IMG/VR virus record: IMGVR_UViG_3300021492_000072
Reading direction: 5' to 3' (one strand)
Length of the DNA stretch: 64,000 nt
From: a virus
The notes under the pieces were generated by a model, which saw only the letters and a list, made by a program, of their open reading frames with translations, did no database searches and had not been told where the DNA came from. Positions 111-22,187 of this stretch are shown in pieces (the first letter of the stretch is position 1; each line of letters begins with the position of its first letter). The translations under genes and the position numbers were made by a program.

Positions 111-1280
111 ATGCCGCACACTAATGTGTTTCGGGGTCAAGTAGGGGACTACGTGTTTGAGCCAAAAACGGACTTTAAACTGTCAGAGCTCTTTGGGGTA
201 ACTGAAGACTTAACCCGCCGAGTTTTCAGACCAAAAGAGGACATCATAAAGTGGATAACATATAAAGGACGTAGAATTCCTATTTTCAAAAAACGCCCGC
301 CTACCAAGTCATACAAAGCCCTGGGCCAGCTTTTAACGGCTGTAAGCGGAGTTACACTTGAAGCATCCTTCCAAGCCATAAAAAGGTTCGCCAGGTTTCT
401 AGAGAAGAAAGGCGCGGAGTGGATAACCGTAGACGATCCTATTTGGAGAAGACATGTGAAAAGAATTGAGGATTACTTCCCCCTCCGTGATGTGGGGTAT
501 TATAAAACTAATGGTGATATGTACCTACCCCAAATAATGCGCGTTCATAGGACGTTACGGAAGCTCGAAAAGCGGTTCCCAGGGATATTATCCGGTGTGC
601 GTATAACATGCGTCCCTCAAGGTAGAACTCCTAGAACGAAAGCCTTTGCTACTATAGACAGAGCGCACTTGGAAGGCGGGGCCCTTCTCAAAAGTCCTAA
701 GTTTGACGATCTTTATTTTGGCAAAATCTTTAAGCACGCCGGGATTGTAAAAGAACACACAACTTACAGCCAGATACGGTCTGCGTATTGGATTCCTGAA
801 ACGCATTTAAGCGACCTAGAAAACTTGAGCCTTTATACTGAATATTTTAAGCGTCGCTTTGGAGGTATAGAGCCTCCCTTGGTGGCTTTTGTATCCTCAA
901 AATACACAGCTACCTGTTACCCTTCCATGAATCACATTGTTCACGAATTTGGTCACATATTTCACAACAAACACAACAAGCTTAGAGAGTTTATGCTTGA
1001 CGTATACGCACCCTACTTAGGGAGGTGCATTAAAGCGGGTTTTGACAAATTCCCGCTCCAGCCGATGTCTGGACGTGCAAAATTACCGCGTCTCACAGCA
1101 CTATTCCAAGTAGATACCAAATTCAGAAGCGCGGTTTACACTCCTTATTCGTTAGTCGACCCATTCGAAGGCTACGCTGAGGCATTTAAAGGGTACATCA
1201 TCCATCCACAGATTCTAAAGCGCAAGTGGCCCGAAGCGTATGAGTTCTTTCGAAAAATAGAAGAACAAGGTTTAAGTTAA
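111..1280 (+). CDS. Zincin-like metallopeptidase carrying the WxTxxGRR tag
   Basis: HEFGH zinc motif plus downstream EGYAEAF (lethal-factor/MPTase-like arrangement); WITYKGRRIPI near the N-terminus. Confidence 0.7.
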   Translation: MPHTNVFRGQVGDYVFEPKTDFKLSELFGVTEDLTRRVFRPKEDIIKWITYKGRRIPIFKKRPPTKSYKALGQLLTAVSGVTLEASFQAIKRFARFLEKKGAEWITVDDPIWRRHVKRIEDYFPLRDVGYYKTNGDMYLPQIMRVHRTLRKLEKRFPGILSGVRITCVPQGRTPRTKAFATIDRAHLEGGALLKSPKFDDLYFGKIFKHAGIVKEHTTYSQIRSAYWIPETHLSDLENLSLYTEYFKRRFGGIEPPLVAFVSSKYTATCYPSMNHIVHEFGHIFHNKHNKLREFMLDVYAPYLGRCIKAGFDKFPLQPMSGRAKLPRLTALFQVDTKFRSAVYTPYSLVDPFEGYAEAFKGYIIHPQILKRKWPEAYEFFRKIEEQGLS

Positions 1281-1321
1281 TGTACTTGACACTTCAAGCG
1301 GTGAGTACTAGTTAACCAGTA

Positions 1322-2296
1322 ATGGAACGTGTTGTCTTCTTCGTGACGCGAAAGCCCAAGTTCGCCCCCAGTCCTTTCTACCTAGAAGGACGCAGGCCAA
1401 CCGACAAGTATTTATGGGATCCAATTATTGACCTACTTGAGCGTAAAGTCGTAACTTGCCCAGACGGAAAACCAGGTCATTGGGTGACATTACCTGGAGG
1501 CCGTAAGGTTTGTATCCCAGAGTCGTATTGGCGGAAGAAAGCACTTACTGCGGGTGTAACTGCGGGTACGGTTACTGCTGCTGTTACAGCTGCTACGCTC
1601 GCAGCGTCAGCGCGGGTTCGGGCTTTTGTTCGTGGTCTTCATTTCACCCCCGAAGGTGCGATACAGCCGCTATTGGGGCGACGCGGTCTGAACTTTATAC
1701 TAAAAAGCCCCGATGTTGTGAGTCGATCTTTTCGCGCCGCTGCTCTGACTGGATTTAAAGTGCGACGTTTTGGGTATTATGAGTATAGGGGTGTGAGGGG
1801 TTTGATGATCGATGGGTCGCTAAAGAATTTTCCAGAGTCCAAGTTCTTGTACGCCACAACGAAAGATCCAGATGTGCTATGGGCCGGATTGATTTCTATT
1901 CCAAAGGCATCGCGTAAGGCATCACGTGACCTCTTTAGAGGTGTCTTTGACTTAACGCGCGCGAGCGGTGCGTCAAAAATACGATTCATAGCAGGACTTG
2001 AAAATGGATCATCAATGTGGGCACGTTTAGGTGGTAAGTGGGTCGACAAGGGTGCTGAAAATGCGTGTAAGCGAGCAATCTTAGAGCGGCGTAGAAGCAT
2101 TGGCTACCCCGCTGACTTAGACAGACTCATCACCGAAGCACGAACCCCAAAAGAGTTAGTACAAAAATTGGATGAGAGGTTGGGTAAATCAGGCACACGC
2201 AGACTTCTAAGAAATGTTGAATGGTGGGGGGAACTCGACTTGAAAGATCCTCAAGTCAGGTCCTTTTTATTAAAGTTAACAGGACAGAAGTTGTGA
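1322..2296 (+). CDS. Tagged protein with C-terminal GNAT-like domain
   Basis: CPDGKPGHWVTLPGGRKVCIP tag, then Ala/Thr hydrophobic helix; GASKIRFIAGLENGSSMWARLGG resembles the C-terminal motif of phage GNAT-like domains. Confidence 0.5.
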   Translation: MERVVFFVTRKPKFAPSPFYLEGRRPTDKYLWDPIIDLLERKVVTCPDGKPGHWVTLPGGRKVCIPESYWRKKALTAGVTAGTVTAAVTAATLAASARVRAFVRGLHFTPEGAIQPLLGRRGLNFILKSPDVVSRSFRAAALTGFKVRRFGYYEYRGVRGLMIDGSLKNFPESKFLYATTKDPDVLWAGLISIPKASRKASRDLFRGVFDLTRASGASKIRFIAGLENGSSMWARLGGKWVDKGAENACKRAILERRRSIGYPADLDRLITEARTPKELVQKLDERLGKSGTRRLLRNVEWWGELDLKDPQVRSFLLKLTGQKL

Positions 2297-3174
2297 ATGT
2301 ACCAGAAGCACTGAAGAAATATGCGAGACCTTTCTTGGTTTGGTGTGAGGGGTCCTATCCTTACTGTCTGCACATACACCTCGCGAGTGTTTTTCATGGT
2401 GACCTTCGTATGAGGTGGTGTGGGCGTGACCTTATTGGTGTAACTTTATTCCTCTACCGCTCGGGGTCTGTGAAGCATAGACCAAATGGAAGAGAGGGTT
2501 GGGATGACTTCCTTAAGATTGTGAAGTACCCACGAAGATACTTTAAGCTGGACTATACAACAGGAGAGATTATTGGTCAGAGGAGCCTTCAAGCGACGAT
2601 GAAGCTTCCGGAGGCTAATGCGTGGATCAATGTTCGGAAGTTTATATCACCACCCGGTTATATCGGAGCGCGTTATCTTAAGGACAAGTGGGGCTACATG
2701 ACGCGTGTGGACACTGGGTTAGTGGAGCACCTTACACGCAAGCTAGATATGTTTGAGTTTTACTTTACTAAAGGGAAGGCCTTTCGTGGTAGATACATCC
2801 TTCGACCCTTTGGGCGTGGTTTCCATTTTTACACTGCATCTGCTGACAAACCACACGTAGTGGGTACAAAGTATGAGAAGTTAAAAGAGGGTAAGGAGTT
2901 AGGGGGTTTCCTGTGGATCAGAGCAAAGGATCAGACACCATACATTCTTTCATTGCGTGCGGTTGAAAAGCGTTTCGTTGCCCCTTTTGGCTACTCAGGT
3001 CTACCTACACAATTAAAGAAGTTGATCCCTTCAAGGTTTCAATACTGGAAGTTAAGGAGCGAGAAGGATCGTATAAAGGTGCGGGATGAGTTAAGGGATG
3101 CGCTTAAAAGGAAAGGACTGATGAAGTACCTAGAATCTGGTGCGTGGTCTTACGTGAAAAGTTTAGAGGCTTGA
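2293..3174 (+). CDS. LigD 3'-phosphoesterase-like protein
   Basis: HLASVFHGDLRM resembles HxAxxLHYDxRL; VDTG..FEFYF..FRGRYILR resembles the PE-domain C-terminal strands; GTG overlaps the upstream TGA. Confidence 0.5.
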   Translation: MNVPEALKKYARPFLVWCEGSYPYCLHIHLASVFHGDLRMRWCGRDLIGVTLFLYRSGSVKHRPNGREGWDDFLKIVKYPRRYFKLDYTTGEIIGQRSLQATMKLPEANAWINVRKFISPPGYIGARYLKDKWGYMTRVDTGLVEHLTRKLDMFEFYFTKGKAFRGRYILRPFGRGFHFYTASADKPHVVGTKYEKLKEGKELGGFLWIRAKDQTPYILSLRAVEKRFVAPFGYSGLPTQLKKLIPSRFQYWKLRSEKDRIKVRDELRDALKRKGLMKYLESGAWSYVKSLEA

Positions 3175-3224
3175 CCTTTTTTGGTAGACCCTAGTTTAAA
3201 TTTGGAACAAAGGAGGTGAGAGCT

Positions 3225-4301
3225 ATGTCGTTTTCGCGGTTTGAAAATGGGTTATTCCAAGCAACAGGTCAGTTTATTGCATCGGCTGACACTAAACCGT
3301 TTAAGGACTTCGCGAAGCAAGGTGAGTTAATAGTTGCGGGTTACGCTACAACTTTCGACGTTGGGCTGGAAGGAGCTGTCATCGCGAGGGACGCGTTAAA
3401 TGAAGAGGATTTGAAGCAACGCCCGACTTTGCTGTTCAACCACGACCAGAATCGCCCCATCGGACGTGTTGTAAGCTCTAAGGTTGATGATAAGGGCCTT
3501 TTCATAGTTGGTGTTATTGATAGTACTGAAAAGGAACTTCAACAGAAAATCATGTCTGGTACGCTTTCTCGTTTCTCAATCAGGGGCCGGATAATGCGCT
3601 CACATGCTGAATGGAGGAAGGACCTTCAGAAGAATATAGACGTAATTGATGAGTTAAAGACTTTAGAAGTATCTGTTGTTTCGGTACCCGCTGTTGCAGA
3701 GGCCGAAATTCAAAAATGGTATCTGCAACGTAATTTTAACGAAGGAGGTGATAGTATGAGTGAACAAAGAGACGTTGAGGCAAAGGACATCACGCGCGAC
3801 ACTGAACTCCCAGAAGAGGATGAGTTTGTGCTTGAAGACGATGGAACAATTGAGTTATTGCTGGGGCTAGATGAGCGAGTTAATGACTTGGTTGACAAGA
3901 TTAGTACTTTTGAAGCGGCTGCTAATGACCTTAAGGCAGTCATGGAGAAGTTGAGCGCAATCGATAAGAAGATTGATGAGGTACTCAAAAAGTTGGAGAA
4001 GTATCCATATCCATATCCAGCTAAGAGAGACGCTGAAGAGTCAGCTGACCAATCAGAGCAGGGAGAAGGAGATCAGGAGAGACAGGAGTCCACTAATCCA
4101 CTTGAGGAGATTCAGAAGTCTATCCAACGCTTGGCTGACGAAGTAAAGTCGATAAAGGAATCTCCTACTATAAAGGGGGAGAAGGAGGCTGGAAAGGAAG
4201 ACGAACTAAAGAGATTTATAGAATCAGAAGAGTACAAGAGCGCACCCCCAACTGACAAGCTGAGGATGTTATACGACTTTTTGCAAAAAGGAGGTGAGTA
4301 G
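3225..4301 (+). CDS. HK97-family prohead protease fused to scaffold
   Basis: VAGYATTF, LLFNHD..PIG, GL, FSI.G, EVSVVSVPA motifs; acidic coiled-coil C-terminal half; GGAGGTGA SD. Confidence 0.9.
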   Translation: MSFSRFENGLFQATGQFIASADTKPFKDFAKQGELIVAGYATTFDVGLEGAVIARDALNEEDLKQRPTLLFNHDQNRPIGRVVSSKVDDKGLFIVGVIDSTEKELQQKIMSGTLSRFSIRGRIMRSHAEWRKDLQKNIDVIDELKTLEVSVVSVPAVAEAEIQKWYLQRNFNEGGDSMSEQRDVEAKDITRDTELPEEDEFVLEDDGTIELLLGLDERVNDLVDKISTFEAAANDLKAVMEKLSAIDKKIDEVLKKLEKYPYPYPAKRDAEESADQSEQGEGDQERQESTNPLEEIQKSIQRLADEVKSIKESPTIKGEKEAGKEDELKRFIESEEYKSAPPTDKLRMLYDFLQKGGE

Positions 4302-4302
4302 G

Positions 4303-5232
4303 ATGCTAGATTTAAAGCGCGAATTAGTTAGAAGCTTAACCGAAAGTGATATTGCTTCGATCATCCCCAAGGAAGTAGATAAGATCATCGAGTCCATGGT
4401 TGAGCATAAGAATCCTCTTCGTCAGAATCTTCCTCGTAAACCAGGCTCTGGCGCGGGAGTTCCCGTTAACCGGAGAGACGGCGCTTCAACAGAGCCCAAG
4501 TTCTACGGTGACACCGACTCATTCGATGAAAGCACAGGCAGTTACTCTCAGGTTGTGTTTACATACAAGACCATTGGATGTCAGGGGAAGGTCACTCGTA
4601 AGGCACGCGCAATCGGAGCTAACTACGCTGACTTACTGGCCAATGAAATGGAGGAACGGTCCCAAGAGTTCCGTGACAAAGAAGAATGGGGATACTTTTG
4701 GGGCGATGCAACAGCAAATCCAAAACAGTTTGATGGGTTAGATAAGTTAACCCACAGTGACAATAGATTTGCAGTCGGTGGAAGTGGTGGTGGCAACTTA
4801 ACACTTGAGTTAATGGACCAAGCAATTGACGCAGTTCGCGGGACACCTGACATGATCGTGTGCAGTAAAAGAACACGTAGGAGAATACGTGCCTTACTTC
4901 AAACTCAACAAAGGTTCGTAAATACCACAAAAGTGAAGGGTGGCTTCGAACTCATGAGCTATAATGATATTCCTATCTACGTGTCTAACCAAATTCCTGA
5001 CACTCTTAAGGTTGATACGGACGGGAAGACCATCACTAGCTTAACCGCTGGTACATTGTCAGCTCTCTTTATTTTGGACACTGAGAAAGTGTATGTGTCC
5101 GAGTTAACCCCCCTTACTATTAAACCTCTCGCCAAAACTAGCTCGCAGTTTGACCTCTTTGACATCTACGCTGACGAGGTTTTAGTAGTTCGTAATCCAT
5201 ACGCGTGTGCTGAGATTGTAGGAATTGTATAA
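4303..5232 (+). CDS. Major capsid protein (HK97 fold)
   Basis: Directly follows the protease; about 310 aa; FDGL and YNDIPI motifs; strong SD; hairpin downstream. Confidence 0.85.
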   Translation: MLDLKRELVRSLTESDIASIIPKEVDKIIESMVEHKNPLRQNLPRKPGSGAGVPVNRRDGASTEPKFYGDTDSFDESTGSYSQVVFTYKTIGCQGKVTRKARAIGANYADLLANEMEERSQEFRDKEEWGYFWGDATANPKQFDGLDKLTHSDNRFAVGGSGGGNLTLELMDQAIDAVRGTPDMIVCSKRTRRRIRALLQTQQRFVNTTKVKGGFELMSYNDIPIYVSNQIPDTLKVDTDGKTITSLTAGTLSALFILDTEKVYVSELTPLTIKPLAKTSSQFDLFDIYADEVLVVRNPYACAEIVGIV

Positions 5233-5288: not shown

Positions 5289-5690
5289 ATGTATAAAATG
5301 AAGTACTGTGGGCCGTTTAGTGGTCCAGAATGGACTCTTGCTACTTATCGTGAGGTCATAACTGTAAAAAACGGGTACTGCACAGTTAAGTACCCGGAAA
5401 CAGTTCAAACGCTACAACTGCAAGGCTTCAAATTAGTAGAGCAAGACGACACCCCAAAGCCACCACCTCGTCAGAAGGAATCTATTAAACCAGTAGCAAC
5501 GCCTCCACCGAGACAAAAGCCGGAGCTGTCTCAAGCTGAAACGAAGATCCTTGAATTGCTTAAAAAAGGTGCAAACCTAGGTGCCATAGCGGTTGCTATT
5601 AAGTGGAAAAAGTCAAAGATAGAGAATTGGATACGAACTCACAGCAAGCTAGTAGCTGAGGTAGTAAATGCGCCAAGTTCTGCCAAATAG
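5289..5690 (+). CDS. Hypothetical head-region protein with Pro-rich linker and HTH-like C-terminus
   Basis: SD GGAGG; PPPRQK twice; helical C-terminus. Confidence 0.55.
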   Translation: MYKMKYCGPFSGPEWTLATYREVITVKNGYCTVKYPETVQTLQLQGFKLVEQDDTPKPPPRQKESIKPVATPPPRQKPELSQAETKILELLKKGANLGAIAVAIKWKKSKIENWIRTHSKLVAEVVNAPSSAK

Positions 5691-7236: not shown

Positions 7237-7264
7237 GCTTCCTCCTTTGATATAGACTACACTT

Positions 7265-7293
7265 ATGATACCAAACTCGCAAGACATTGACAA
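7265..7293 (-). promoter_or_regulatory. Sigma70-like promoter
   Basis: TTGTCA-17nt-TATCAT; overlaps a divergent TTGACA. Confidence 0.55.
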
Positions 7294-7311: not shown

Positions 7312-7719
7312 ATGGCAACCACACAAGCTTTATTAAGTGAAACAGACTTTCCACAGGCAACGGTTGATGTCTTTTATAACAGTGAAGTGCTTGAGAGATG
7401 GATATTTGTGGGTGTACAGCAGCAAGGGATCGCGTCTGTTTTGTGGTGGATTACAAGAGGTTACCATCAATTTACTGTACTTCTTCCCCTTGCGCAATTG
7501 TACCTCCTACATCATATCAGAACGCTGCGAATCAGAGTACCTGCCCGACAAATCTGGACAATAAAGCGCGAACATGGTATCACTATTTACCCCACTCTTC
7601 AGTTCTACACAAGCGCGGGCAAAGTTGCTGAATTACGCGGCTGTGGATTTAACTTCCAAGAGTTGAAGAGTGTGGTAGTCAACCACTTGACCCCGGGGGT
7701 GAGCTATGGGAACTACTAG
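7312..7719 (+). CDS. Hypothetical protein
   Basis: ORF overlapping the holin start. Confidence 0.45.
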   Translation: MATTQALLSETDFPQATVDVFYNSEVLERWIFVGVQQQGIASVLWWITRGYHQFTVLLPLAQLYLLHHIRTLRIRVPARQIWTIKREHGITIYPTLQFYTSAGKVAELRGCGFNFQELKSVVVNHLTPGVSYGNY

Positions 7720-8194
7720 TAGTGTTTTCAAAAAAAGGAGGTTCCCATTGTACAGTGTACTTTATTACAGAGGCCAGCTTACTACAGATTTCACATTTAA
7801 GTCAGTCGCTTCAGGGCTTTTATATGCTCTTTTATGGCTGTTTGGTGATGTCAACGACGCTGTCATTGCTCTACTAGCATTAATGACTCTTGACGTTATA
7901 TTAGGTTTGTCAGCCGCTATTAAATACCATGATGTCTCTTCAGACAAACTACGGCAAGGTGCGGTAAAGTTTTTATTGTATTTTGTGTTGATCATAGCCG
8001 CCAACTGTGTTGACAAGGTTGTAGCTCTTATACCGCTTATGAGCCAAATAGTACAGATCAGGAGTTTCACTATGATTTATCTAGCGGTATCTGAAGGGAT
8101 TAGTGTCCTTGAGAATCTTTCATCACTTGGTGTGGCTGTGCCTAAAGTGATGCTCAAAAGACTCCGCCGGTTCAAGCAAAGCATGGAGAGGTAA
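7706..8194 (+). CDS. Phage holin (family 4-like)
   Basis: TM helices; D..LG, SS..LR.G..K, EGISVLENL..LGV.VP..L..RL signature. Confidence 0.85.
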   Translation: MGTTSSVFKKRRFPLYSVLYYRGQLTTDFTFKSVASGLLYALLWLFGDVNDAVIALLALMTLDVILGLSAAIKYHDVSSDKLRQGAVKFLLYFVLIIAANCVDKVVALIPLMSQIVQIRSFTMIYLAVSEGISVLENLSSLGVAVPKVMLKRLRRFKQSMER

Positions 8195-9445
8195 ATGGCA
8201 CGGATTATAATGTGTCCTGACAACAAACCAGGGACATGGATTACGCTAAAAGAAACAGGAAGACGCGTTTGTGTTCATTACATCAAAAAGAATGGTAGGT
8301 GGGAGAGGATCTCAGCAGCTATACCGTCAGCGAAAGTGTTAGGTGGTGTTACATTAGCAGCTATAGCCGCCGCGATACTACGAAGGAAGCCACCGTTGAT
8401 TAAGGACATCCGAAAAGTTGCCGTGATTCACGGAAAAGCTGAGTACGCGACTGATAAGTGGTACCAAGCTATAATGAGTGCGTGGATGGGGATGAAATCG
8501 ATCCCTCCTGTAACTCCTAGTGCAAAACCACCTAAGTTACTGAAAACCGCTGCTTTAATATACACACCACATCCAGGAGCAACTGCAGTGAAGGCCGAGA
8601 AGATTATTGGTCATAGAGAAATGATGAAGTTGATCAGCGACAAGTTTGAATTCTCGTTTCTCTTCCACAAACACCCAGAGTATCACCTGGACACCTATCT
8701 GGCGTCCAACTTCAAGAACGTAGATGAAATGAGGAATTACTTCGCTTCGGTAGGTAAATCCTTTATATTGAAACCGAGGTTTGGGTCGCTTGGGACTCTT
8801 AAAGACTTTCCTAACGGTGAATGGTCAAACAAAGCAATCGAAAAATATATCAAGTCTTATGGTGCTGATGATGTAGTTGTACAGGAGCTAGTACCCGTTG
8901 CAAACGAGTTTCGGGTACATGTGGTGAATGGAAAAGTTTACGCTGTAATGCACAGATGGGGCCCACCAGGAGGACTCGGAAAAGTTTGGCGTGAACATAT
9001 TCCGTTTGGGCATATTGTGTTTCCAGTCTGGCGTAAGGGTGATATTGTAAAATTCACAGAGAAGGCAATTCAACCTTGGGGGAAGAACCTTCATGCTGGG
9101 TTGGACGTGATCCAACTTCCCGATGGGAGCTATAAGATCTTAGAAGCAAATCCCCTTCCTGCTTCCTTTTTACATCCTTACGTATCTAGAAAGTTCCACA
9201 GAGCAGTTACTGGCGTGTGGACTGCAGATATACAAGCACTAGCTGTGGTAGGAGGTGCGGTTGGTGCTTGGACTACAATTTCAGGAACGAGGGAACTTGT
9301 GAACAAGAGGAAGAGGGACTATCCTGAGATAGTTACTTTCAAAGGGGATAAAGGTTTTTGGGTAACACTAGAAACAGGTAAGAAAGTCTTCATTCCCCTG
9401 AAGTATGCAGCGGATTACATTAGAGAAAGGTGGTTCGCTTGGTGA
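8195..9445 (+). CDS. RimK-like ATP-grasp ligase with the tag at both termini
   Basis: FILKPRFGSLG, VVQE, EFRVHV, GLDVI, ILEAN motifs; WITLKETGRRVCV and WVTLETGKKVFIP. Confidence 0.8.
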   Translation: MARIIMCPDNKPGTWITLKETGRRVCVHYIKKNGRWERISAAIPSAKVLGGVTLAAIAAAILRRKPPLIKDIRKVAVIHGKAEYATDKWYQAIMSAWMGMKSIPPVTPSAKPPKLLKTAALIYTPHPGATAVKAEKIIGHREMMKLISDKFEFSFLFHKHPEYHLDTYLASNFKNVDEMRNYFASVGKSFILKPRFGSLGTLKDFPNGEWSNKAIEKYIKSYGADDVVVQELVPVANEFRVHVVNGKVYAVMHRWGPPGGLGKVWREHIPFGHIVFPVWRKGDIVKFTEKAIQPWGKNLHAGLDVIQLPDGSYKILEANPLPASFLHPYVSRKFHRAVTGVWTADIQALAVVGGAVGAWTTISGTRELVNKRKRDYPEIVTFKGDKGFWVTLETGKKVFIPLKYAADYIRERWFAW

Positions 9446-9566: not shown

Positions 9567-10100
9567 TTAAGCCCCAAGCGCGCTCCTTATTTGTTCGTAA
9601 AGCTTGGTGCCTTTCTTAGCAAGCCCAGCTTTATCGACACACACCTCAAACACAATGAACCCAGTACGAGGGTCAACAAGATCTACTAAGATAAGTGCGG
9701 CTTCATTTTTACTCTCAACGGGATTGAGTCTTGTATTTAAATAAGTCATGTAGGATTTGGGTTTCTTCATCCCTTTGGTTACATCCACAGGTTCTTCCTT
9801 CTTCATAAGCTGGATCAACTTTTTAAAGGCATCAGTGGTTTTAGGTTTGGCGGTCTCACGTACTAAATACTGAGCGAAGTTAGACTGCACGTAAGCGACG
9901 TCACCCATCACTCGATGTGCGGTCGCTAGTTTGTCAACCGGTCCTTCGAGCTTCACTGAAGATATGAGAGTCTCCTTTAGTGACTCAAAACTCTTGGGAT
10001 GAGTCGCGACGGCAACTAATCCAAGTCCCCGAGTGCCTAGAAAGACCGTGACTCGTGGATTTGCCTTCCCCACAGTTAACACAGAACCTTGCTTCTTCAT
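9567..10100 (-). CDS. Unknown protein, paralogue of the N-terminal half of 21192-22187
   Basis: Shared GPVDKLA, GDVAYVQSN and LNT..NP. Confidence 0.75.
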   Translation of the reverse strand: MKKQGSVLTVGKANPRVTVFLGTRGLGLVAVATHPKSFESLKETLISSVKLEGPVDKLATAHRVMGDVAYVQSNFAQYLVRETAKPKTTDAFKKLIQLMKKEEPVDVTKGMKKPKSYMTYLNTRLNPVESKNEAALILVDLVDPRTGFIVFEVCVDKAGLAKKGTKLYEQIRSALGA

Positions 10101-10106: not shown

Positions 10107-10466
10107 TTACCTCCTTTTAGATTTTTCCTCGATCTCTCTACGTCTCCGCCTCGCCTGCAAGTTAATCCCAGCAGCCGAAGCTGCTATAATGGCTCCTAGC
10201 ATACCCAACTTTTCCCCAAGAGCGCGGTAGCCGAGTGCTGCCATTGAGGTTTTGCACCGACTCGCTAAGAGTTCTCCACCCAAGAGTCCTATCGCTGCTA
10301 TACCCGCGCCAATTGTGGAAATCTTTTCACTCACTTTTTCGTCATTCGTCCACTTTTGATACGCTTTTATATTCTTCTCTTCGATGAATACACGCTTACC
10401 CGCTCTTGTTGTGACCCAAATACCTCTCTTTCCTCGAAAGGTTGTAATTTTTGGTTTCCTAGACAT
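10107..10466 (-). CDS. Small tagged membrane-hairpin protein
   Basis: ITTFRGKRGIWVTTRAGKRVFIEE followed by two Gly/Ala hydrophobic helices. Confidence 0.75.
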   Translation of the reverse strand: MSRKPKITTFRGKRGIWVTTRAGKRVFIEEKNIKAYQKWTNDEKVSEKISTIGAGIAAIGLLGGELLASRCKTSMAALGYRALGEKLGMLGAIIAASAAGINLQARRRRREIEEKSKRR

Positions 10467-10788
10467 TTTCTTCCTCCTTATATCTAGTTACTAGAGACAC
10501 GCCCGCGCCTGCGATTGCAATAGTAACGCCCATCTTGCTGAGTTTACTACCGAGTGCACGGTACCCAAACTTTGCAAAAGCAGTTCTACATTGTAACGCA
10601 AGTGACGCACCGCTCTTAACACCAACAGATGCTATAGCCGATCCGACACCGCTAACCCACCTAATGGCCTTTTTACTATTGGTCCATTTCTGATATGCTT
10701 TTATGTTCTTCTCTTCTATGAATACACGTCTGCCTGTCCTTAATGTGAACCAAGCACCTCTCTTCCCTCTATAAGTAGTGATCCTCAC
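10459..10788 (-). CDS. Small tagged membrane-hairpin protein (tandem paralogue)
   Basis: ITTYRGKRGAWFTLRTGRRVFIEEKNIKAYQKWTN nearly identical to its neighbour. Confidence 0.75.
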   Translation of the reverse strand: MRITTYRGKRGAWFTLRTGRRVFIEEKNIKAYQKWTNSKKAIRWVSGVGSAIASVGVKSGASLALQCRTAFAKFGYRALGSKLSKMGVTIAIAGAGVSLVTRYKEEENV

Positions 10789-13962: not shown

Positions 13963-16900
13963 TTCGCAACCCAACTATCTAACTCAATTTTACCAGTTAT
14001 TCCACTGTCTAGTTCAAGCCTCTTAGTTACTTCACTATCTAACCCAAGCTTTCGCTTACAAAATACTAGTGGAATGAGAACCGTGTCAACGCTCCATGTA
14101 GTAGGAAGGGTAAGCTTTTTGAGCAGGACGTTAATGGGCAGCGTTTTGTAGTAAGCCAAACTGACCAACATTGTGTCGATGACAAATGAGGTAGTGATTT
14201 GGAGTTTCTGTAATAAGGCAGAACAAGAATAACTAGTGTCGAGGCCTAGTTTTCGTAGCAGAGCATCCACAGGCATACTCTCTTCAAGTCCGAGAGACAT
14301 GAGTAAAATGTCAATAACAGTTTGTGCTATTCGCTCTTTTGATAGTAGAACGTCAGTACTTAATTGTACTTCTCGTATGGTTGTGAGAAGGGTGTCAATT
14401 GGAAGACTTTGTGATAAAGCAAGCTTTTGTAACAACACGTCAATGGTGTTTTCGGTTGACAGGTTTAGAACCTTCAAAAGAGTATTGATTGTGATAGAAC
14501 CTATTAACTGCTTTGATAGTAAAGAATCAGCTTGGAAGGTCACAGAGTCGGTTTTCTGTAGCAAAGTGTCAACGGTTGCTGAGGTTGTAACTCCTAATTT
14601 TTTAAGTAACGCGTTGATAGTTATAGACTCTTGGAACGCGCCACCGATGACAACGTCAATAGTAACTGATGTGTCTAGGTCTAATTTCTTTAGCAATGAG
14701 TCAATCGTAGTAGAAGTAGGTAGGTCAATCGCTTTGAGTAAAGCATCTAAGGTCAGCTGTGTAGAAAAGAGTGTTTGTATTAGTGTATCAATAGAAACTT
14801 GTGAAGTAAGGCCAAGAGACTGAAGCAGTGTATTAATTGTGGTCGTACTAGTTAGGGTCTTTTGTAGCGAAGCGTCGATAGAAGCGGAGGTAGAGAGGCC
14901 CAGGCCTTGGAGTAAGCTGTCCACAGTCAGAGTACTTTGCTTAGTTAATTTAAGTAGGACGTCCAGAGTCACACCAGATGACAACGCTTTTTGTAACAAG
15001 ACGTCTATCGTGGTTGATGTATCAAAACCTAGCTTCTCAACCAAAGCGTCTATTGCGGCGCTGGAAGTTAAACCAATCTTTTGAAGTAATGTGTCGACGG
15101 ATGTTGAAGTTGTGATTCCTAATTTTTCAAGTAACGTGTTGATAGCTATAGATTCTTGGAACATAGCCCCAATGACGGCGTCAATAGAAACAGATGTGTC
15201 TAAGTCTAACTTCTTTAGTAAGGAATCAATCGTGGTAGAAGTAGGCAAATTAACTGCTTTGAGTAAAGTATCTAAAGTCATACTAGACGACAGTGTTTTT
15301 TGTAACAGAACGTCTATTGTGGCGCTAGAAGTTAAACCAATCTTTTGAAGTAATGTGTCAACAGCTGCTGAGGTTGTGATTCCTAGCTTCTGAAGTACTA
15401 TGTCGATAGTTACGGACTCTTGGAACATAGCTTTAATAACAGCATCGATCGTCGCAGAAGTGGAGAGCCCAAACTTTTTCAGCACCGAATCAATTGTGAC
15501 CGAAGTTAAACCAGCTGACTGAAGCACAGCATCTATGAGAACTTCGGTACTTAATCCTAGCTTTTGAAGCAAGCCATCTACTGTAAGAGAACTTTCCTTG
15601 ATCGACTGAAGTAAGGTGTCAATTGTTATTGTTGATGTAAACGTCTTCTGTAGTAAGGTGCTGACCGTAACACTTTGTGTCAGCCCTAATTTTTCGAGTA
15701 GTGTGTCAACTGTTGACGATGTTGTTAAACCCAGAGCTTTCAGTAGGCCATCTACGCTAAGCGCTGAAAGAAGTGCTTTTTGTAGTAAGGCATCTATATT
15801 AAGCGCTTCCTCTAAGTCCTGCTTCTGTAGTAGAACGTCAGTGGTGACTTGTTCGGTTAGCCCAAGGGCTTGAAGCAAGCTGTCGGTTGTGTAAGAGGTT
15901 GTGTAAGCAGCTGATACGTACTCATCCGCCCCAATGTCCCAAGTTCCACTCCTAGTTTCGCCATCTATGTCATCAGTGAAAGCCAGATTCGGATCAGAGG
16001 ATAAATCTACACCTGCATCCTTTGCACAAGTATCATTAGAGGCAAGATGGAAGTCATCATTGGCTTCATCTACAAAAGAAACTGTGCAAGTTTTTGAGTT
16101 AGCACCAGGGGCATCACCAGAGATATCTGAGATGTTGTAGTCAGAATCGGGGTCAAAATCACCATTATACCCATCAGTGCAATTTTGGACAAGATTATTT
16201 TTTGCCACAATATCTTGATAGCCTGATGAATAAATACCGACATTACAATTATAAATCGTGTTATTATAAGCATAAACCTTCTGCCCTGCTGTGCTTATCC
16301 TTGCATCAATTCCATCCGAACTGTTAAAATCATAAATAATATTGTTCCAAATTTTTACAGGACCTTCAGATGTATTCCCTATTATTCCTTTTGCTAAATT
16401 TCCATTACATCCCCAAATGATATTGTATGATACCTCATAATGAGGAGCATCCCTAACATCCAGAGCATGGTTATAATCACCAGGCCCCGTTTGTCTAATT
16501 TGAAGTCCCTCAATTTTTGTATAAGGTTCGTTGATATGAAGTGCATAAGAATCAGCGTTATTAACTATTCTATACTTACTATCGTTCCACTTTCCATCAT
16601 GCCGATATCCTTCACTTGGGTCAGTCCAGATTTTGATATAACGAGTAGCATCAGTATCCCAACCATCAACAGTCGCTCTATCATCTGCACTTCCACCCGT
16701 GCATCTACATTTAGCAACTGCTATCTCACCGTCTTGATAAGCGAAAGTATCTATATCACAAGACGCCCCAGAGTCATCACCAGTTATAGTATCATCAACA
16801 GTAGGAGTGCCGCTTGAGAGTTCATACCGCATATAAGAAGAATTATCTGTCTCGATCATCACTCCCGTTGCACCAGAGGGACTAAATGATAGAGTTTCGC

Positions 16901-17051
16901 CACCAGTAAACGTTCCACTATGATTAGAAGTATTAGCCCTCTGCATATTAGGCAGATTACGCTGTTCTCCTGCCTCCCAAGCAGAAAGAGAGGTGTAATC
17001 CGTTCCCGTACTATTATCTGGGTCAACCACTTTTACGACTTCAGTCGCCAT
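13959..17051 (-). CDS. Fibre/adhesin: parallel beta-helix head plus long DxLL repeat stalk
   Basis: NNIIY/NNTIY helix repeats, DFHL...DIDG..R..WDIGADE, dozens of DTLL repeats, ELDS C-terminus. Confidence 0.75.
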   Translation of the reverse strand: MATEVVKVVDPDNSTGTDYTSLSAWEAGEQRNLPNMQRANTSNHSGTFTGGETLSFSPSGATGVMIETDNSSYMRYELSSGTPTVDDTITGDDSGASCDIDTFAYQDGEIAVAKCRCTGGSADDRATVDGWDTDATRYIKIWTDPSEGYRHDGKWNDSKYRIVNNADSYALHINEPYTKIEGLQIRQTGPGDYNHALDVRDAPHYEVSYNIIWGCNGNLAKGIIGNTSEGPVKIWNNIIYDFNSSDGIDARISTAGQKVYAYNNTIYNCNVGIYSSGYQDIVAKNNLVQNCTDGYNGDFDPDSDYNISDISGDAPGANSKTCTVSFVDEANDDFHLASNDTCAKDAGVDLSSDPNLAFTDDIDGETRSGTWDIGADEYVSAAYTTSYTTDSLLQALGLTEQVTTDVLLQKQDLEEALNIDALLQKALLSALSVDGLLKALGLTTSSTVDTLLEKLGLTQSVTVSTLLQKTFTSTITIDTLLQSIKESSLTVDGLLQKLGLSTEVLIDAVLQSAGLTSVTIDSVLKKFGLSTSATIDAVIKAMFQESVTIDIVLQKLGITTSAAVDTLLQKIGLTSSATIDVLLQKTLSSSMTLDTLLKAVNLPTSTTIDSLLKKLDLDTSVSIDAVIGAMFQESIAINTLLEKLGITTSTSVDTLLQKIGLTSSAAIDALVEKLGFDTSTTIDVLLQKALSSGVTLDVLLKLTKQSTLTVDSLLQGLGLSTSASIDASLQKTLTSTTTINTLLQSLGLTSQVSIDTLIQTLFSTQLTLDALLKAIDLPTSTTIDSLLKKLDLDTSVTIDVVIGGAFQESITINALLKKLGVTTSATVDTLLQKTDSVTFQADSLLSKQLIGSITINTLLKVLNLSTENTIDVLLQKLALSQSLPIDTLLTTIREVQLSTDVLLSKERIAQTVIDILLMSLGLEESMPVDALLRKLGLDTSYSCSALLQKLQITTSFVIDTMLVSLAYYKTLPINVLLKKLTLPTTWSVDTVLIPLVFCKRKLGLDSEVTKRLELDSGITGKIELDSWVAK

Positions 17052-19093: not shown

Positions 19094-19130
19094 ACTCCTC
19101 CTCCTCCTCTTTATTGAGTTTTCTTCTTCG

Positions 19131-19159
19131 CTTGTAACCGCTGTTAGTCATTCAGTCAA
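19131..19159 (-). promoter_or_regulatory. Sigma70-like promoter
   Basis: TTGACT-17nt-TACAAG; divergent TTGACG at 19180. Confidence 0.45.
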
Positions 19160-19225
19160 GCGGCTTGTGAACTTACTTCTTGACGGTGAAACCAAAATCA
19201 TAGATATTATTGGACGGAGGTAGAC

Positions 19226-21118
19226 ATGAAGACAACTATAATCACTTTTGATGAACAGAAGGGTGTTTTAATACAGCACTTGCTGCAATGGAAAGACTTC
19301 CCTAAGATAGTAGCGTGCGATGAATCCGATCGAACTTTGTACAGAGAGTTGGGGTGTAAAACAGTTCCACGTGGAATGAACTTCCTTGAAACGTTTAAGC
19401 GCCTAATCTCAGCAGTTAACACCGAGACGTTTACCTTTATCTACCCAGGATGCTTCGTAAATCCTAATTACTTCCTGGAAGCAGCTAACATCTTAAGAGC
19501 ACCTAATGTAGGCTTACTAGCACCAGGTCTGGATGTTGCAGCTGGACCACAAGCGGCTAGCCAACACATTCAGTTCAGACAATCAGTAAGAGTAGCACCA
19601 TGGTGTTTTAGTGGACGTACCTCACAAATTAAGTCGAGCTTAAACACCAAACATCTTTTAACAGGCTTTGATGTAGTCCCCTACATTTGTACTACTCTCG
19701 CCTTAGAAGGCTCGTTTCAAGTTGTATGTTCCAAATATATCCTCCAAGTACCAGTAAGCTTAAAGGATCGTGTAAAAGAAGCTGATTTAGGACATTACTT
19801 ACTAACCCAACCTGTTAAGCCACTCAACCCCGTGCTCGTTTACACAGGACGTGGTAGGGTCCCACCTCATGCAGCGGCGTTATTCTCAAAAGTAATAAAA
19901 GCACCGCTTGAGTCGGTGGAGCAGCCACGTGACGCGTTAGTGTTCGTATTAAACGAGGGAGAGGATTTTGACCCCTCAGTAACTAAAGAGAAGATCAAAA
20001 GATTGTGTACACCTGTTGACCCAGCAACGCTTGCTTACTACGTGTGCGTTGTTGACGTGTGGAATGAGTATAAAGTCGGGAACCTTAATTGGTCCCTCAG
20101 AGCCTTACGGAGTGGTACCCCAAAACTAAACTCCATAATTCAATCGAACCCAGAACTAATCCCTGGAGACGCAAAGCGAACCTCAGGGGTTGTTATTCGC
20201 AGGGGACTAAAGGACCTGCCGAGAGCAACACTAACGGTTCAACCCTTCACCCCTCCTTCTCTCACAATAGCTACTATTATGAAGAACGAGAAGGACCGGC
20301 TCGCGGCTTATTTGAGTTTAACTCTCCCGTTTGCTGACGAAGTATTATTGGTTGATACGGGCTCACGGGACAAGTCGGATAAGCACGCTAGAAAGTTCGG
20401 TGCGAGGGTTATAAACTTCAAGTTCAGAGATCACTTCGCCGAAGCGAGGAATGCGTATTTAAAGGAGTGTAAAACTAAGTGGTTGCTCCACTTAGACATA
20501 GATGAGGTAACGGACTTCAAGAAAGTAATGAACTTAATTTTATCGGACCTCCCATCAGTAGATGGAGTTCAACTTCAGGTGTTGAACGTCATGAAGCGTA
20601 CTCGCTCGTATGTACATCAAGACGCGGTCCGCATCATCAAGAACCCGAACTCGTGGTACTATACAGGAAGAGTTCACGAAACTGTAGAAGAGTGTGCCGC
20701 AAAACACTCTAAATCTTTAATCAGGGCATCTGGGTTAGTCATATATCATTTTGGTTACCTCTCCTCCAATGTCCCTAGCAAGTTAGAGTACTATCGGAAG
20801 CTTAACGAATTACAAATGCAGGAAAACCCATACGACTGCCGACCTTACTTTAACCTTGCCCTACACGAGTTAAATCACCAGGAGTTAACTGATGAACAAA
20901 TTGATAAAGTTATTAGAATGTTGAAGAGAAGTATAGAATTACACAGCACTTTCGTACTTGCGAAATATGAGTTAAGCCGATGTTACTGCTTAAAGGCTCT
21001 CCAACTTATAGAGGATATCATGCAGCTTGCACCTCGTGATCATCCCTTATATAAAGAGGTGAGTGAGGTGTACACCCTCTTGAAGAACTACACACGACGT
21101 ATTATAGTTGAAGAATGA
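19226..21118 (+). CDS. Multi-domain GT2 glycosyltransferase with TPR
   Basis: IMKNE, VDTGSRD, FAEARN, LDIDE, VHE, HFGY; TPR-like helical C-terminus. Confidence 0.85.
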   Translation: MKTTIITFDEQKGVLIQHLLQWKDFPKIVACDESDRTLYRELGCKTVPRGMNFLETFKRLISAVNTETFTFIYPGCFVNPNYFLEAANILRAPNVGLLAPGLDVAAGPQAASQHIQFRQSVRVAPWCFSGRTSQIKSSLNTKHLLTGFDVVPYICTTLALEGSFQVVCSKYILQVPVSLKDRVKEADLGHYLLTQPVKPLNPVLVYTGRGRVPPHAAALFSKVIKAPLESVEQPRDALVFVLNEGEDFDPSVTKEKIKRLCTPVDPATLAYYVCVVDVWNEYKVGNLNWSLRALRSGTPKLNSIIQSNPELIPGDAKRTSGVVIRRGLKDLPRATLTVQPFTPPSLTIATIMKNEKDRLAAYLSLTLPFADEVLLVDTGSRDKSDKHARKFGARVINFKFRDHFAEARNAYLKECKTKWLLHLDIDEVTDFKKVMNLILSDLPSVDGVQLQVLNVMKRTRSYVHQDAVRIIKNPNSWYYTGRVHETVEECAAKHSKSLIRASGLVIYHFGYLSSNVPSKLEYYRKLNELQMQENPYDCRPYFNLALHELNHQELTDEQIDKVIRMLKRSIELHSTFVLAKYELSRCYCLKALQLIEDIMQLAPRDHPLYKEVSEVYTLLKNYTRRIIVEE

Positions 21119-21149
21119 AGAATTTGTTACGTCATAACCCGCTGTTTGA
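21020..21149 (+). repeat. Direct repeat, copy 1
   Basis: 55-bp exact block plus a near-identical block matching 22327-22442. Confidence 0.95.
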
Positions 21150-21191
21150 ATGGTTTGACCTTGCTTAAGAAAGGATGAATAAGAGGGGATG

Positions 21192-22187
21192 TCACCGATT
21201 CCTTTCTCTTCTTCTTCGATAGATCGCGGCAAGAATGGCAGCAACGACACCAATTGTAGCTCCAGCGTACATAAGAGGTTTTCCAAATTTAAGCCCAAGT
21301 TTAGAGATATCTCTCGAGGCATCAAGTATGTCAGACTGGTTTTTTGCCATCCATGAGGCACCTTTTAGCGCTTTTACTGGATCTTGTTTAAACCCCTTTT
21401 TAAAGAGATTAAACATCAGTGCGTTGTCTTTTACCGCAGCATGTGCGGCCCCTGACGCAACACCAATACCAGATAATAATAACCCCGCCCCAGCAGTAAT
21501 CCCACCAAAGTTAACAAGTGATTTCAGTGCGCTTTCACGCCAATCGTGATAAGCATCTACTTTATCCTTTGGAATAAAAACACGCCTACCAGTCTTTGTT
21601 GTAACCCAATATCCTAGTTTACCTTTCCACTCTGTCAGTTTTGCCTTTGTGGGTGTCTTACGTTCCAACGACCTTTTTATCGCTTCTAGCGTTTTAGTTC
21701 CAGCTTCAACTACTTGCTTTACACCATATACAAATTCGCCAAAAATAAGTCCTATTTTCTTATCTACAACAACAAATACTTTAAAAGCCGGATTAGTGGT
21801 GGTAGGATTAAACGCAGTGTTCAAACCTAGACTATACGCTTCAGGAGAAACAATCTGAGGAGGGGGTGATGGTTTCGTTTTACTTATTTCTTTAAGAAAT
21901 TCTTTACATAATTGACTAAAAGCGTTATTAGGCGCTTTACTTCCTAAGGCTACACATTCTGCTACGTTAGATTGCACATAAGCAACATCGCCTAATGATC
22001 TATATTTAGCGGCTAACTTATCAACCGGTCCCGTTTGATACAAAATACTACGTAATTTTGGGTAATACTTTTGAAAAAGTGGTACATGAGTTATGATTAC
22101 AGTCAATGCTATCCCACGTGCTCCAAATCTTGTAGAAATACGAGGACTTACTTTCGACACACCTAAAACTAAACCGTATTTCTTCAT
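21192..22187 (-). CDS. Fusion of the 9567-like domain, the tag and a membrane hairpin
   Basis: MKKYG start aligns with MKKQG; GYWVTTKTGRRVFIP; two hydrophobic helices, ends RRRRE. Confidence 0.75.
   Translation of the reverse strand: MKKYGLVLGVSKVSPRISTRFGARGIALTVIITHVPLFQKYYPKLRSILYQTGPVDKLAAKYRSLGDVAYVQSNVAECVALGSKAPNNAFSQLCKEFLKEISKTKPSPPPQIVSPEAYSLGLNTAFNPTTTNPAFKVFVVVDKKIGLIFGEFVYGVKQVVEAGTKTLEAIKRSLERKTPTKAKLTEWKGKLGYWVTTKTGRRVFIPKDKVDAYHDWRESALKSLVNFGGITAGAGLLLSGIGVASGAAHAAVKDNALMFNLFKKGFKQDPVKALKGASWMAKNQSDILDASRDISKLGLKFGKPLMYAGATIGVVAAILAAIYRRRRERNR

What the first reader, a model, noticed from the sequence alone, without database searches (positions are those of the whole stretch)
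111..22187. Shared short tag on six unrelated proteins: candidate head-packaged effector system
Seen: seven copies of a basic motif. They are WITYKGRRIPI (252), GHWVTLPGGRKVCI (1481), GTWITLKETGRRVCV (8237), GFWVTLETGKKVFI (9359), GIWVTTRAGKRVFI (10418, minus), GAWFTLRTGRRVFI (10752, minus) and GYWVTTKTGRRVFI (21608, minus). Each lies next to a Gly/Ala-rich hydrophobic helix. The attached cargo differs: zincin peptidase, GNAT-like, ATP-grasp ligase, membrane hairpins, an unknown domain. All carriers sit in or around the head/neck module. Known: T4 internal proteins use a short capsid-targeting sequence, and zincin and GNAT domains are common cargoes of MuF/polyvalent phage proteins. Inference: the motif is a modular address label for loading proteins into the prohead or ejecting them, delivering host-modifying enzymes with the DNA.
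Basis: partly seen in the sequence, partly recalled or inferred. Interest (0 to 1): 0.92.

Follow-up and report, generated by a model that had tools for sequence, protein, structure and literature searches.

The report
Portable cargo tag on phage proteins
Seven copies of one short peptide sit on otherwise unrelated proteins of an uncultured phage; the same unnamed peptide precedes the enzyme modules fused to portal and MuF head proteins in many other phages and ends toxin-like enzymes in gut Melainabacteria, so it is probably an undescribed passenger label for delivered proteins, though no experiment shows this.

Summary
All seven copies are found at the stated places; shuffled sequence gives none, and there are none in the other 42 kb. 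A profile scores them 33-51 bits against 7.5 for the next best hit. The core is about 20 residues (G-x-W-[VI]-T, a 2-3 residue turn, G-[RKH]-[RKH]-[VI]-[FC]-I). AlphaFold predicts a confident three-stranded beta unit. No Pfam, PHROG or NCBIfam model covers it, no PDB sequence contains it, and none of six short tag strings searched occurs in the open-paper library.

It belongs to a wider family. In other uncultured phages it lies just behind the portal domain (three portal families) or the MuF domain. There it precedes each zincin, ADP-ribosyltransferase, Zeta-toxin, kinase or phosphatase module. In Melainabacteria chromosomes it forms the extreme C-terminus of lipase, GH108 and DUF6973 proteins; the eleven printed show no obvious Sec leader.

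Modularity and head-gene linkage hold, but loading is untested. The Gly/Ala helix is lineage-specific, three of the six carriers are related to one another, and GNAT is unconfirmed.

This scan has noted comparable tags on other phage DNA before.

Best reading: a portable passenger tag (confidence about 0.45).

The parts
3..1280 (+). Tagged zincin metallopeptidase (HEFGH). The full gene is 439 aa and starts 39 bases before the window; the tag is at 216-326 (Trp codon 252).
   Evidence: weak ATLF match, E 0.003; 439-aa product P0049; tag 33 bits.
1322..2296 (+). Tagged protein of unknown fold. The tag is at 1445-1555, a Cys-pair dialect, followed by an Ala/Thr/Gly-rich hydrophobic stretch.
   Evidence: 51 bits; no family. 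The tag-plus-domain cassette weakly matches the C-terminus of P0018. Orthologues P0021, P0042 and P0043 keep the tag.
8195..9445 (+). RimK/R2K-like ATP-grasp ligase with a tag at each end (8201-8311 and 9323-9433). A short hydrophobic helix lies inside each tag. The gene starts directly after the holin gene.
   Evidence: R2K_3/R2K_2, E 4e-4; MptN 1e-8, RimK 2e-6, all below cut-off. Homologue P0023 (40% identity) keeps only the N-terminal tag.
10107..10466 (-). 119-aa protein: N-terminal tag (10344-10454), Gly-zipper-like hydrophobic hairpin, poly-Arg tail.
   Evidence: 48 bits.
10459..10788 (-). 109-aa paralogue of the 119-aa protein; tag at 10678-10788.
   Evidence: 51 bits; 54% identity over 106 aa.
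9567..10100 (-). Untagged 177-aa protein homologous to the N-terminal domain of 21192-22220. This is the split form of that fusion.
   Evidence: 39% identity over 169 aa.
21192..22220 (-). 342-aa fusion: unknown N-terminal domain, tag (21534-21644), then hydrophobic helices and a poly-Arg tail.
   Evidence: 51 bits. AlphaFold gives tag strands at 195-198, 201-207 and 213-217, with pLDDT about 80-87. Homologues at 29-36% identity keep the tag as the best-conserved stretch.
21005..21149 (+). Left copy of a roughly 140-bp direct repeat flanking the 342-aa gene (right copy at 22312-22442).
   Evidence: 70 nt at 93% and 59 nt at 92% identity.
22312..22442 (+). Right copy of the direct repeat.
3216..5232 (+). 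Context: S78 prohead protease with a coiled-coil tail (3216-4301) and HK97-fold major capsid protein (4294-5232). Neither carries the tag.
7706..8194 (+). Context: holin (Phage_holin_4_1) immediately upstream of the double-tagged ATP-grasp gene.
   Evidence: E 1e-25.

Best explanation
The seven copies are this phage's local form of a widespread, unnamed peptide module of about 20-35 residues: a small beta-meander built around G-x-W-[VI]-T, a turn, then G-[basic]-[basic]-[VI]-[FC]-I. I read it as a portable passenger tag. It marks a protein or protein module as cargo of the phage particle, probably by docking as an added beta-strand unit to a conserved surface near the portal during procapsid assembly. 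The cargo would then be held in the head and leave with the DNA. In most phages the tagged modules are strung behind the portal or MuF protein; in this phage they are spread over six separate genes. In this lineage the tag is also coupled to Gly/Ala-rich hydrophobic helices. I take this to mean that several passengers (the two small hairpin proteins and the 342-aa fusion) act at or in the host membrane after ejection, while the zincin and the ATP-grasp ligase are host-modifying enzymes.

Shown: the motif, its modularity, its protein-level conservation, its predicted beta structure, and its linkage to portal/MuF and to effector-type domains.

Inferred: docking, packaging, ejection and membrane action.
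For: - Non-random and specific.
- Similarity between the cargo classes is confined to the tag, with or without the helix.
- The tag is the best-conserved stretch in 29-36%-identical homologues.
- At residues that are identical between copies, only 0-60% use the same codon, so the peptide is under selection and this is not recent recombination.
- AlphaFold predicts three strands at pLDDT about 80-87.
- Family: 39 cluster representatives at E<=1e-3 among 1.84 billion proteins, many with 2-9 matched stretches per protein, and 92 further proteins with profile A8.
- Same-polypeptide partners: Phage_portal (23), Portal_Mu (4), lambda-type portal (1), MuF (3), ADP-ribosyltransferase families (8), Zeta toxin (2), CHAP (2), lipase family (13), DUF6973 (9), M15 peptidase (1).
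- In portal fusions the tag begins at residues 381-565, that is, behind the portal domain.
- Gene order TerL ... portal (2 tags) - MuF polyvalent protein (3 tags).
- Five consecutive tagged genes in L003 and three in L001.
- The tag occurs at N-termini, C-termini and internally (15, 32 and 57 copies), which fits a docking handle better than a cut site.
- Tags within one genome resemble each other more than tags of different genomes (0.575 against 0.406 identity), as expected if each phage's tags track one partner.
Against: - There are no virion proteomics, no receptor and no co-fold.
- This phage's portal-MuF-zincin protein, protease/scaffold and capsid protein carry no tag, so tag-to-tag assembly with a core head protein is not supported.
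- Portals of three unrelated Pfam families carry the tag, so a portal-specific receptor is unlikely.
- A portal needs no address label.
- In Melainabacteria the tag ends chromosomal lipase, GH108 and DUF6973 proteins lying between housekeeping genes, far from the prophage MuF or portal genes of the same genomes.
- Four of the six carriers here lie outside the portal-to-protease slot. One is a lone reversed gene between direct repeats, which looks like a moron.
- The hydrophobic helices could mean ordinary membrane proteins of the infected cell.
- The tag was not found in cultured phages, though the test was weak.
Confidence: 0.45

Rival explanations
1. Exit or translocation signal rather than a loading signal. 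The hairpin is read by the channel through which effectors leave (portal/tail tube in phages, an unknown export or phage-derived route in Melainabacteria). It acts as a leader or trailer for threading.
For: In Melainabacteria-labelled loci all 43 copies end 1-3 residues before the stop codon (40 of them exactly 2). They sit on Lipase_3, GH108 and DUF6973 proteins among housekeeping genes, and the eleven printed show no obvious N-terminal Sec leader (by eye, not tested with a predictor). Four consecutive L003 genes also end with the tag. Cargo fused to a portal must be freed and threaded out.
Against: Many copies are internal (57 of 104) or N-terminal, which is odd for a terminal secretion signal. 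No candidate exporter was found next to the bacterial genes. This reading overlaps with the best explanation and cannot be separated from it by sequence.
Confidence: 0.17
2. Processing signal. The tag marks where a polyprotein is cut (by the zincin modules or the prohead protease), and the stand-alone tagged genes are descendants of such cassettes.
For: The tag stands at module boundaries of polyvalent proteins and very often next to zincin modules (P0004 is three tag-plus-zincin units; also P0031, P0036, P0018, the L001 573-aa protein and window 3-1280). Iyer et al. 2017 propose zincin-mediated processing of polyvalent proteins (PMC5512222).
Against: 32 copies are at the extreme C-terminus and 15 at the N-terminus, where nothing can be cut off. 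The conserved residues are hydrophobic, aromatic or turn Gly plus one basic residue, a structural pattern rather than an extended scissile site. A folded hairpin at pLDDT above 80 is a poor protease substrate.
Confidence: 0.15
3. Local membrane-protein module. In this phage the tag plus Gly/Ala helices is a juxtamembrane unit of proteins that act in the infected or lysogenic cell (lysis control, superinfection exclusion, envelope modification) and are not carried in the virion.
For: Hydrophobic hairpins with poly-Arg tails. The ATP-grasp gene abuts the holin gene. Two GT2 genes lie nearby. The 342-aa gene is a reversed, repeat-flanked insertion.
Against: Family-wide, only 16 of 101 copies have a hydrophobic helix within 70 residues, and most carriers are soluble portal/MuF/effector proteins. 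A tag-helix-enzyme-helix-tag layout would place an ATP-dependent ligase outside the membrane if both helices spanned it.
Confidence: 0.12
4. A purely structural spacer or shuffling junction. The module is an autonomously folding hairpin that insulates neighbouring domains and/or is the conserved edge at which effector cassettes are swapped. It has no reader.
For: Trp/Phe and Thr/basic cross-strand positions fit a self-stabilising hairpin (inference). The tag lies at cassette edges in highly mosaic proteins.
Against: Codons are scrambled between copies, so DNA-level recombination is not what keeps them alike. A spacer has no reason to sit at the very end of 43 of 43 Melainabacteria proteins or to be the best-conserved part of small proteins.
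Confidence: 0.1

Closest known systems
Phage-type polyvalent proteins and portal- or MuF-fused effectors (Iyer, Burroughs, Anand, de Souza, Aravind 2017, PMC5512222)
   Same: The same cargo repertoire (zincin, ADP-ribosyltransferases, Zeta-like kinases, phosphatases, ATP-grasp) and the same genomic place next to portal and MuF. Relatives bearing this tag are textbook polyvalent proteins.
   Different: Text searches of that paper found no description of this peptide, and no Pfam LPD or other model matches it. The window's carriers are single-cargo, separately encoded proteins. Several have hydrophobic hairpins, and the local portal-MuF-zincin protein is untagged.
MuF polymorphic toxins of temperate phages (Jamet et al. 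2017, PMC5576092)
   Same: Variable toxin-like domains attached to a head-morphogenesis protein, presumed to be packaged and injected.
   Different: There the MuF domain itself is the constant trafficking part, and no junction motif is described. Here the constant part is a 20-35-residue tag that works without MuF in the same polypeptide.
T4 capsid-targeting sequence of internal proteins IPI-III and Alt (reviewed in PMC3012670 and PMC9958956; details from my own knowledge)
   Same: A short peptide on unrelated proteins that are carried in the head and injected.
   Different: The T4 sequence is an N-terminal leader of about 10 residues removed by the gp21 protease. This tag is longer, is predicted to fold, occurs at either end or internally and in multiple copies, and shares no sequence with the T4 leader.
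Encapsulin cargo-loading peptides (own knowledge)
   Same: Short terminal peptides that dock diverse enzymes to the inside of an HK97-fold shell.
   Different: The consensus is different (Gly/Ser/Leu-rich and extended, not a Trp-centred hairpin). No evidence here that the capsid protein is the receptor.
Ejection proteins of P22 (gp7, gp16, gp20) and the T7 internal core (PMC8402733; own knowledge)
   Same: Virion-carried proteins with membrane-active segments that leave before or with the DNA. This is a model for the tagged hairpin proteins.
   Different: No sequence or fold match was found. Those proteins share no common tag.

Membership tests
Phage-type polyvalent proteins (Iyer et al. 2017) | Two or more unrelated effector or enzyme domains in one polypeptide | tested here: not met
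   Each window carrier has at most one recognisable cargo domain. Tag-bearing relatives do meet it (P0018, P0029, P0036, L031).
Phage-type polyvalent proteins (Iyer et al. 2017) | Encoded beside or fused to portal/MuF head genes | tested here: met
   Two carriers lie between the portal-MuF gene and the prohead protease. 30 of 92 family members carry portal and/or MuF in the same chain.
Phage-type polyvalent proteins (Iyer et al. 2017) | Zincin-like metallopeptidase module present | tested here: met
   HEFGH plus a downstream Glu helix in 3-1280, with a weak ATLF match. A second zincin is on the upstream portal-MuF protein.
T4-type capsid-targeting sequence | Short N-terminal leader (about 10 residues) | tested here: not met
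   The tag is 20-35 residues and lies at the N-terminus, C-terminus or internally.
T4-type capsid-targeting sequence | Removed by the prohead protease and sufficient to package a foreign protein | not testable with these tools
   Needs virion proteomics and reporter fusions.
MuF polymorphic toxins | N-terminal MuF domain on the same protein | tested here: not met
   No MuF match in any window carrier. Present in relatives P0029, P0041, P0065 and L012.
MuF polymorphic toxins | C-terminal toxin with an adjacent immunity gene | tested here: inconclusive
   No toxin family was recognised in the window. The untagged 9567-10100 next to the hairpin genes could be a partner. LprI-like neighbours are seen only in Melainabacteria loci.
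Encapsulin-like cargo-loading peptide | Terminal peptide that binds the inner face of an HK97-fold shell | not testable with these tools
   No co-folding is available. The HK97-fold capsid protein is present at 4294-5232.
Integral membrane hairpin proteins (holin-like or ejection-pore) | Two hydrophobic helices of transmembrane length with a basic flank | tested here: inconclusive
   Kyte-Doolittle 17-residue maxima are 1.5-2.0 and poly-Arg tails are present. The helices are Gly/Ala-rich and short, AlphaFold confidence there is below 50, and no dedicated predictor was available.

The most novel reading that the evidence does not exclude
The W-V-T ... V-F-I hairpin is a general trafficking signal read by one conserved partner. 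It would serve both for cargo of tailed-phage heads (bacterial and archaeal viruses alike) and for a still unknown, possibly phage-derived, export route of lipase, muramidase and DUF6973 effectors in Melainabacteria. If so, the injected 'effectorome' of uncultured phages could be read from sequence, and foreign proteins could be loaded by adding about 25 residues.
Probability: 0.3. Interest if true: 0.85.

Novelty: new variant of a known kind. Interest (0 to 1): 0.7.

Why it matters
Phages are thought to carry enzymes and toxins in the head and inject them with their DNA. Outside T4, how such passengers are chosen is unknown. A short, recognisable, transferable tag shared by hundreds of portal-, MuF- and effector-type proteins would make that question directly testable with tag-reporter fusions and pull-downs. 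It would also give a sequence rule for finding injected effectors in metagenomes, and a handle for loading proteins into phage capsids.

The same tag at the extreme C-terminus of chromosomal lipase and lysozyme-like proteins in Melainabacteria hints at an undescribed effector route in a poorly known phylum.

Tried and rejected
Family and structure look-ups that found nothing:
- Pfam, PHROGs and NCBIfam on the carriers and on the bare 37-residue tags: no family covers the tag. There was only a 16-bit DUF2442 hit, judged to be chance.
- PDB sequences searched with the tag profile: nothing.
- Foldseek against PDB and BFVD, and VIA-align wide, on the 342-aa model: no match above noise, best Z 6.0, mostly helical.
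- AlphaFold of the ATP-grasp protein with three sequences: unusable, mean pLDDT 33.

Sequence searches that found nothing:
- tblastn of the 342-aa protein and of a 41-aa canonical tag against 50,697 phage records: no real hit. The best hit (Flavobacterium phage 1/32) lacks the motif. This is a weak test for so short a motif.
- The search for related loci with the tag alignment or the 342-aa protein: nothing.
- No whole genome is held for the window.
- Literature: none of the six short tag strings searched occurs in any open paper in the library. Term searches of Iyer 2017 and Jamet 2017 found no description of it.

Ideas rejected:
- DNA binding as the general role. The basic flanks are local; canonical copies have acidic flanks.
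- Recent gene conversion. Codons differ between copies.
- Tag-to-tag assembly with a core head protein. No tag is found on the portal-MuF protein, protease or capsid protein here.

Other:
- Promoter and terminator scans around the reversed genes were uninformative.
- ESM Atlas neighbours of the 119-aa protein (all Nitrososphaerota, score at most 0.81) are treated as noise.

Full report
**What is in the window**

The first 22 kb belong to the structural region of a large uncultured tailed phage. One assembly of it is a 152,866-bp contig.

Gene order, plus strand unless marked:
- a zincin gene cut by the window start (3-1280)
- an unknown gene (1322-2296)
- a LigD-phosphoesterase-like gene (2293-3174)
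- S78 prohead protease with a coiled-coil tail (3216-4301)
- HK97-fold capsid protein (4294-5232)
- head-tail adaptor (5668-6486)
- a GT2 glycosyltransferase on the minus strand (6478-7293)
- a holin (7706-8194)
- an ATP-grasp gene (8195-9445)
- a minus-strand block from 19093 down to 9567, holding fibre-like genes and three small genes
- a second GT2 (19226-21118)
- a lone minus-strand gene (21192-22220)
- tail genes from 22408

 A 1441-aa portal-MuF-zincin protein is encoded divergently just upstream of the window.

A regular expression for the core finds exactly the seven claimed copies. It finds none in 50 shuffles and none in the remaining 42 kb. A profile of 26 tag copies scores the seven at 33-51 bits, and the next best stretch in any frame of the window scores 7.5 bits. 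The alignment extends the similarity to about 35 residues: an upstream strand, a G-K-x-G turn, the W-[VI]-T strand, a 2-3-residue turn, the G-R-R-V-F-I strand and the start of a helix.

The best local alignments between the zincin, the 1322 protein, the ATP-grasp protein and the hairpin family cover only the tag and, in some pairs, the hydrophobic stretch after it.

The carriers are not six independent proteins. The 119- and 109-aa proteins are paralogues. The 342-aa protein is a fusion of a 9567-10100-like domain with the same tag-hairpin unit.

**The peptide, not the DNA, is conserved**

Between copies, residues that are identical use the same codon in only 0-60% of cases. The tandem paralogues reach 69%. 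In homologues of the 342-aa protein that are 29-36% identical overall, nearly all columns conserved at 70% or more lie in the tag. Orthologues of the zincin, the 1322 protein and the ATP-grasp protein in other samples keep their tags.

AlphaFold (nine sequences) predicts the tag of the 342-aa protein as three short strands at pLDDT about 80-87, followed by a helix. The hydrophobic C-terminal half is not confidently modelled.

**It is part of a wider, unnamed family**

A search with the seven-copy profile against 1.84 billion cluster representatives gave 39 proteins at E<=1e-3, many with 2-9 matched stretches. They include:
- a 1093-aa MuF protein with three tags separating a GNAT-like and a zincin module (P0029)
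- a protein made of three tag-plus-zincin units (P0004)
- tag-plus-ADP-ribosyltransferase repeats (P0030, P0033)
- a thymidylate-kinase / MuF-like / zincin / ART-like protein (P0018)
- an ATP-grasp homologue (P0023)
- lysine-rich proteins in which a Gly/Ala helix, a basic stretch and the tag recur up to six times (P0005, P0011)

In their contigs:
- P0029 follows a 1127-aa portal fusion that itself has two tags, downstream of TerL.
- P0036 lies downstream of the small-terminase gene and two unannotated ORFs.
- Five consecutive genes in L003 are tagged, four of them at the very C-terminus.
- Three adjacent genes in L001 are tagged.

Through these hits the window's basic dialect connects to a canonical form, G-[HR]-W-V-T-I-x-G-x-H-V-F-I. 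An exact back-translated pattern for this form has about 0.05 matches expected by chance by my own estimate. It found 26 IMG/VR loci. The carriers include portals of the lambda and SPP1/HK97 Pfam families, MuF, Zeta toxin plus a PI3/4-kinase-like module, a histidine phosphatase and an ADP-ribosylating exotoxin domain.

A wider profile (A8) found 92 proteins at E<=1e-3. Of these, 28 carry a portal domain of three Pfam families and 3 carry MuF. Others carry ART families (8), Zeta toxin (2), CHAP (2), lipase-type domains (13), DUF6973 (9) or M15 peptidase (1). In portal fusions the tag starts at residues 381-565, behind the portal domain. Over all these proteins, 57 copies are internal, 32 are at the C-terminus and 15 at the N-terminus.

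**An unexpected branch: Melainabacteria**

The same DNA pattern in one genome per prokaryotic species gave 56 loci. Most come from Gastranaerophilales and other Melainabacteria MAGs. The rest come from Acidobacteriota, Tepidisphaerales, Eubacteriales, Muribaculaceae and a Methanospirillum provirus.

In the Melainabacteria loci all 43 copies end 1-3 residues before the stop codon. The carriers are class-3 lipases, GH108 muramidases, DUF6973 proteins and Gly-rich proteins. The eleven whose sequences I printed show no obvious Sec leader. They lie between housekeeping genes (NrdD, oxaloacetate decarboxylase, Mur ligase, EngA), sometimes next to LprI-like genes. MuF or portal genes exist in some of these genomes, but far away. 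So the tag is not confined to phage head modules. Everywhere, though, it sits on effector-type proteins.

**What it most likely does**

The tag is portable, under peptide-level selection and predicted to fold. It is attached to proteins that are fused to or encoded beside the portal and MuF. It heads each module of polyvalent proteins, which the literature already regards as packaged and injected (PMC5512222).

Its position at either extreme terminus argues against a cleavage site as the general role. The acidic flanks of the canonical form argue against DNA binding. The scrambled codons argue against a mere recombination junction. Tags within one genome share a dialect (0.575 against 0.406 identity), which fits a common genome-encoded reader, although old intragenomic spread would give the same result.

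I therefore favour a passenger tag that docks cargo for carriage in, and delivery from, the particle (0.45). I cannot separate loading from exit. The Melainabacteria data keep a translocation-signal reading alive (0.17). Processing (0.15), a purely local membrane role (0.12) and a structural spacer (0.10) remain possible.

**Points specific to this phage**
- The Gly/Ala hydrophobic helix next to the tag is lineage-specific (16 of 101 copies family-wide). In P0005 and P0011 it lies upstream instead of downstream.
- Two local copies replace a strand residue and the Phe with a Cys pair. A different Cys/His version occurs in P0009 and P0022, which suggests contact between those positions or metal binding.
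- The 342-aa gene lies between 92-93% identical direct repeats that duplicate the neighbouring gene junction, so it was inserted there.
- The local portal-MuF-zincin protein has no tag.

**Known or new**

Polyvalent and MuF-linked effectors and the T4 capsid-targeting sequence are known. This peptide is not in Pfam, PHROGs, NCBIfam or the PDB. The six short tag strings I searched are not printed in any paper of the open library. Earlier agents of this scan have reported comparable but sequence-distinct header tags on other phage DNA, so the phenomenon is recurrent. This report adds the dispersed single-gene form, the coupling to hydrophobic hairpins and the bacterial C-terminal form.

Noticed in passing
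window 2293-3174 (+): An untagged gene between the tagged 1322 gene and the prohead protease resembles the LigD 3'-phosphoesterase domain by ESM Atlas features (score 0.92, 189 shared features). Its 30%-identical homologue in L001 lies next to an ATP-dependent DNA ligase and three tagged genes. It may be a DNA-end-processing enzyme in a head module.
   Followed up: partly
window 21005-21149 and 22312-22442: Direct repeats at 92-93% identity duplicate the 3' end of the GT2 gene and the start of the next gene. They flank the reversed 342-aa tagged gene, which looks like the footprint of its insertion.
   Followed up: yes
loci L038-L093 (e.g. L066:2324-4927, L091:4631-7759, L042:3613-6457): Gastranaerophilales/Melainabacteria chromosomes carry small islands of lipase, GH108 and DUF6973 proteins that all end in the canonical tag two residues before the stop. 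The tag is preceded by one or two copies of a helical repeat of about 30 residues, sometimes with LprI-like neighbours. This looks like effector-immunity islands of an unknown delivery route.
   Followed up: partly
L019, L027, L030, L034, L039, L088, P0041, P0051: In many phage copies the tag continues into a second conserved piece about 8 residues downstream (G-x-I-x-x-G-P), so the full module may be longer than the hairpin.
   Followed up: no
L010:316-2703 versus L008:1567-2703: The epimerase (SqdB-like) gene upstream of the portal is 378 aa in one assembly of this phage and 795 aa, with Hint/intein domains, in another. This is an intein presence/absence polymorphism.
   Followed up: no
window 21192-22220 (-), residues 28-116 of the product; also 9567-10100 (-): The confidently modelled N-terminal domain gives only weak structural matches. 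The top non-helical ones are to anthrax lethal factor and Certhrax helical regions (Z 5.0-5.5). It might be a degenerate zincin-like fold; this is a lead only.
   Followed up: partly
window 11116-12414 (-) and 13959-17051 (-): Two fibre-like genes share long arrays of a repeat of about 15 residues (D-x-L-L-Q-K-L-G-L type) and a C-terminal E-L-x-S repeat.
   Followed up: no
window 25306-31347 (+) and 33158-42226 (+): Two giant ORFs of 2013 and 3022 aa in the tail region (the first probably the tape measure). Neither has a tag.
   Followed up: no
L075 (= L014), Methanospirillum MAG contig: Three consecutive ORFs of an archaeal provirus-like region each carry one tag copy, so the tag also occurs in a virus-like region binned with an archaeon.
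   Followed up: no
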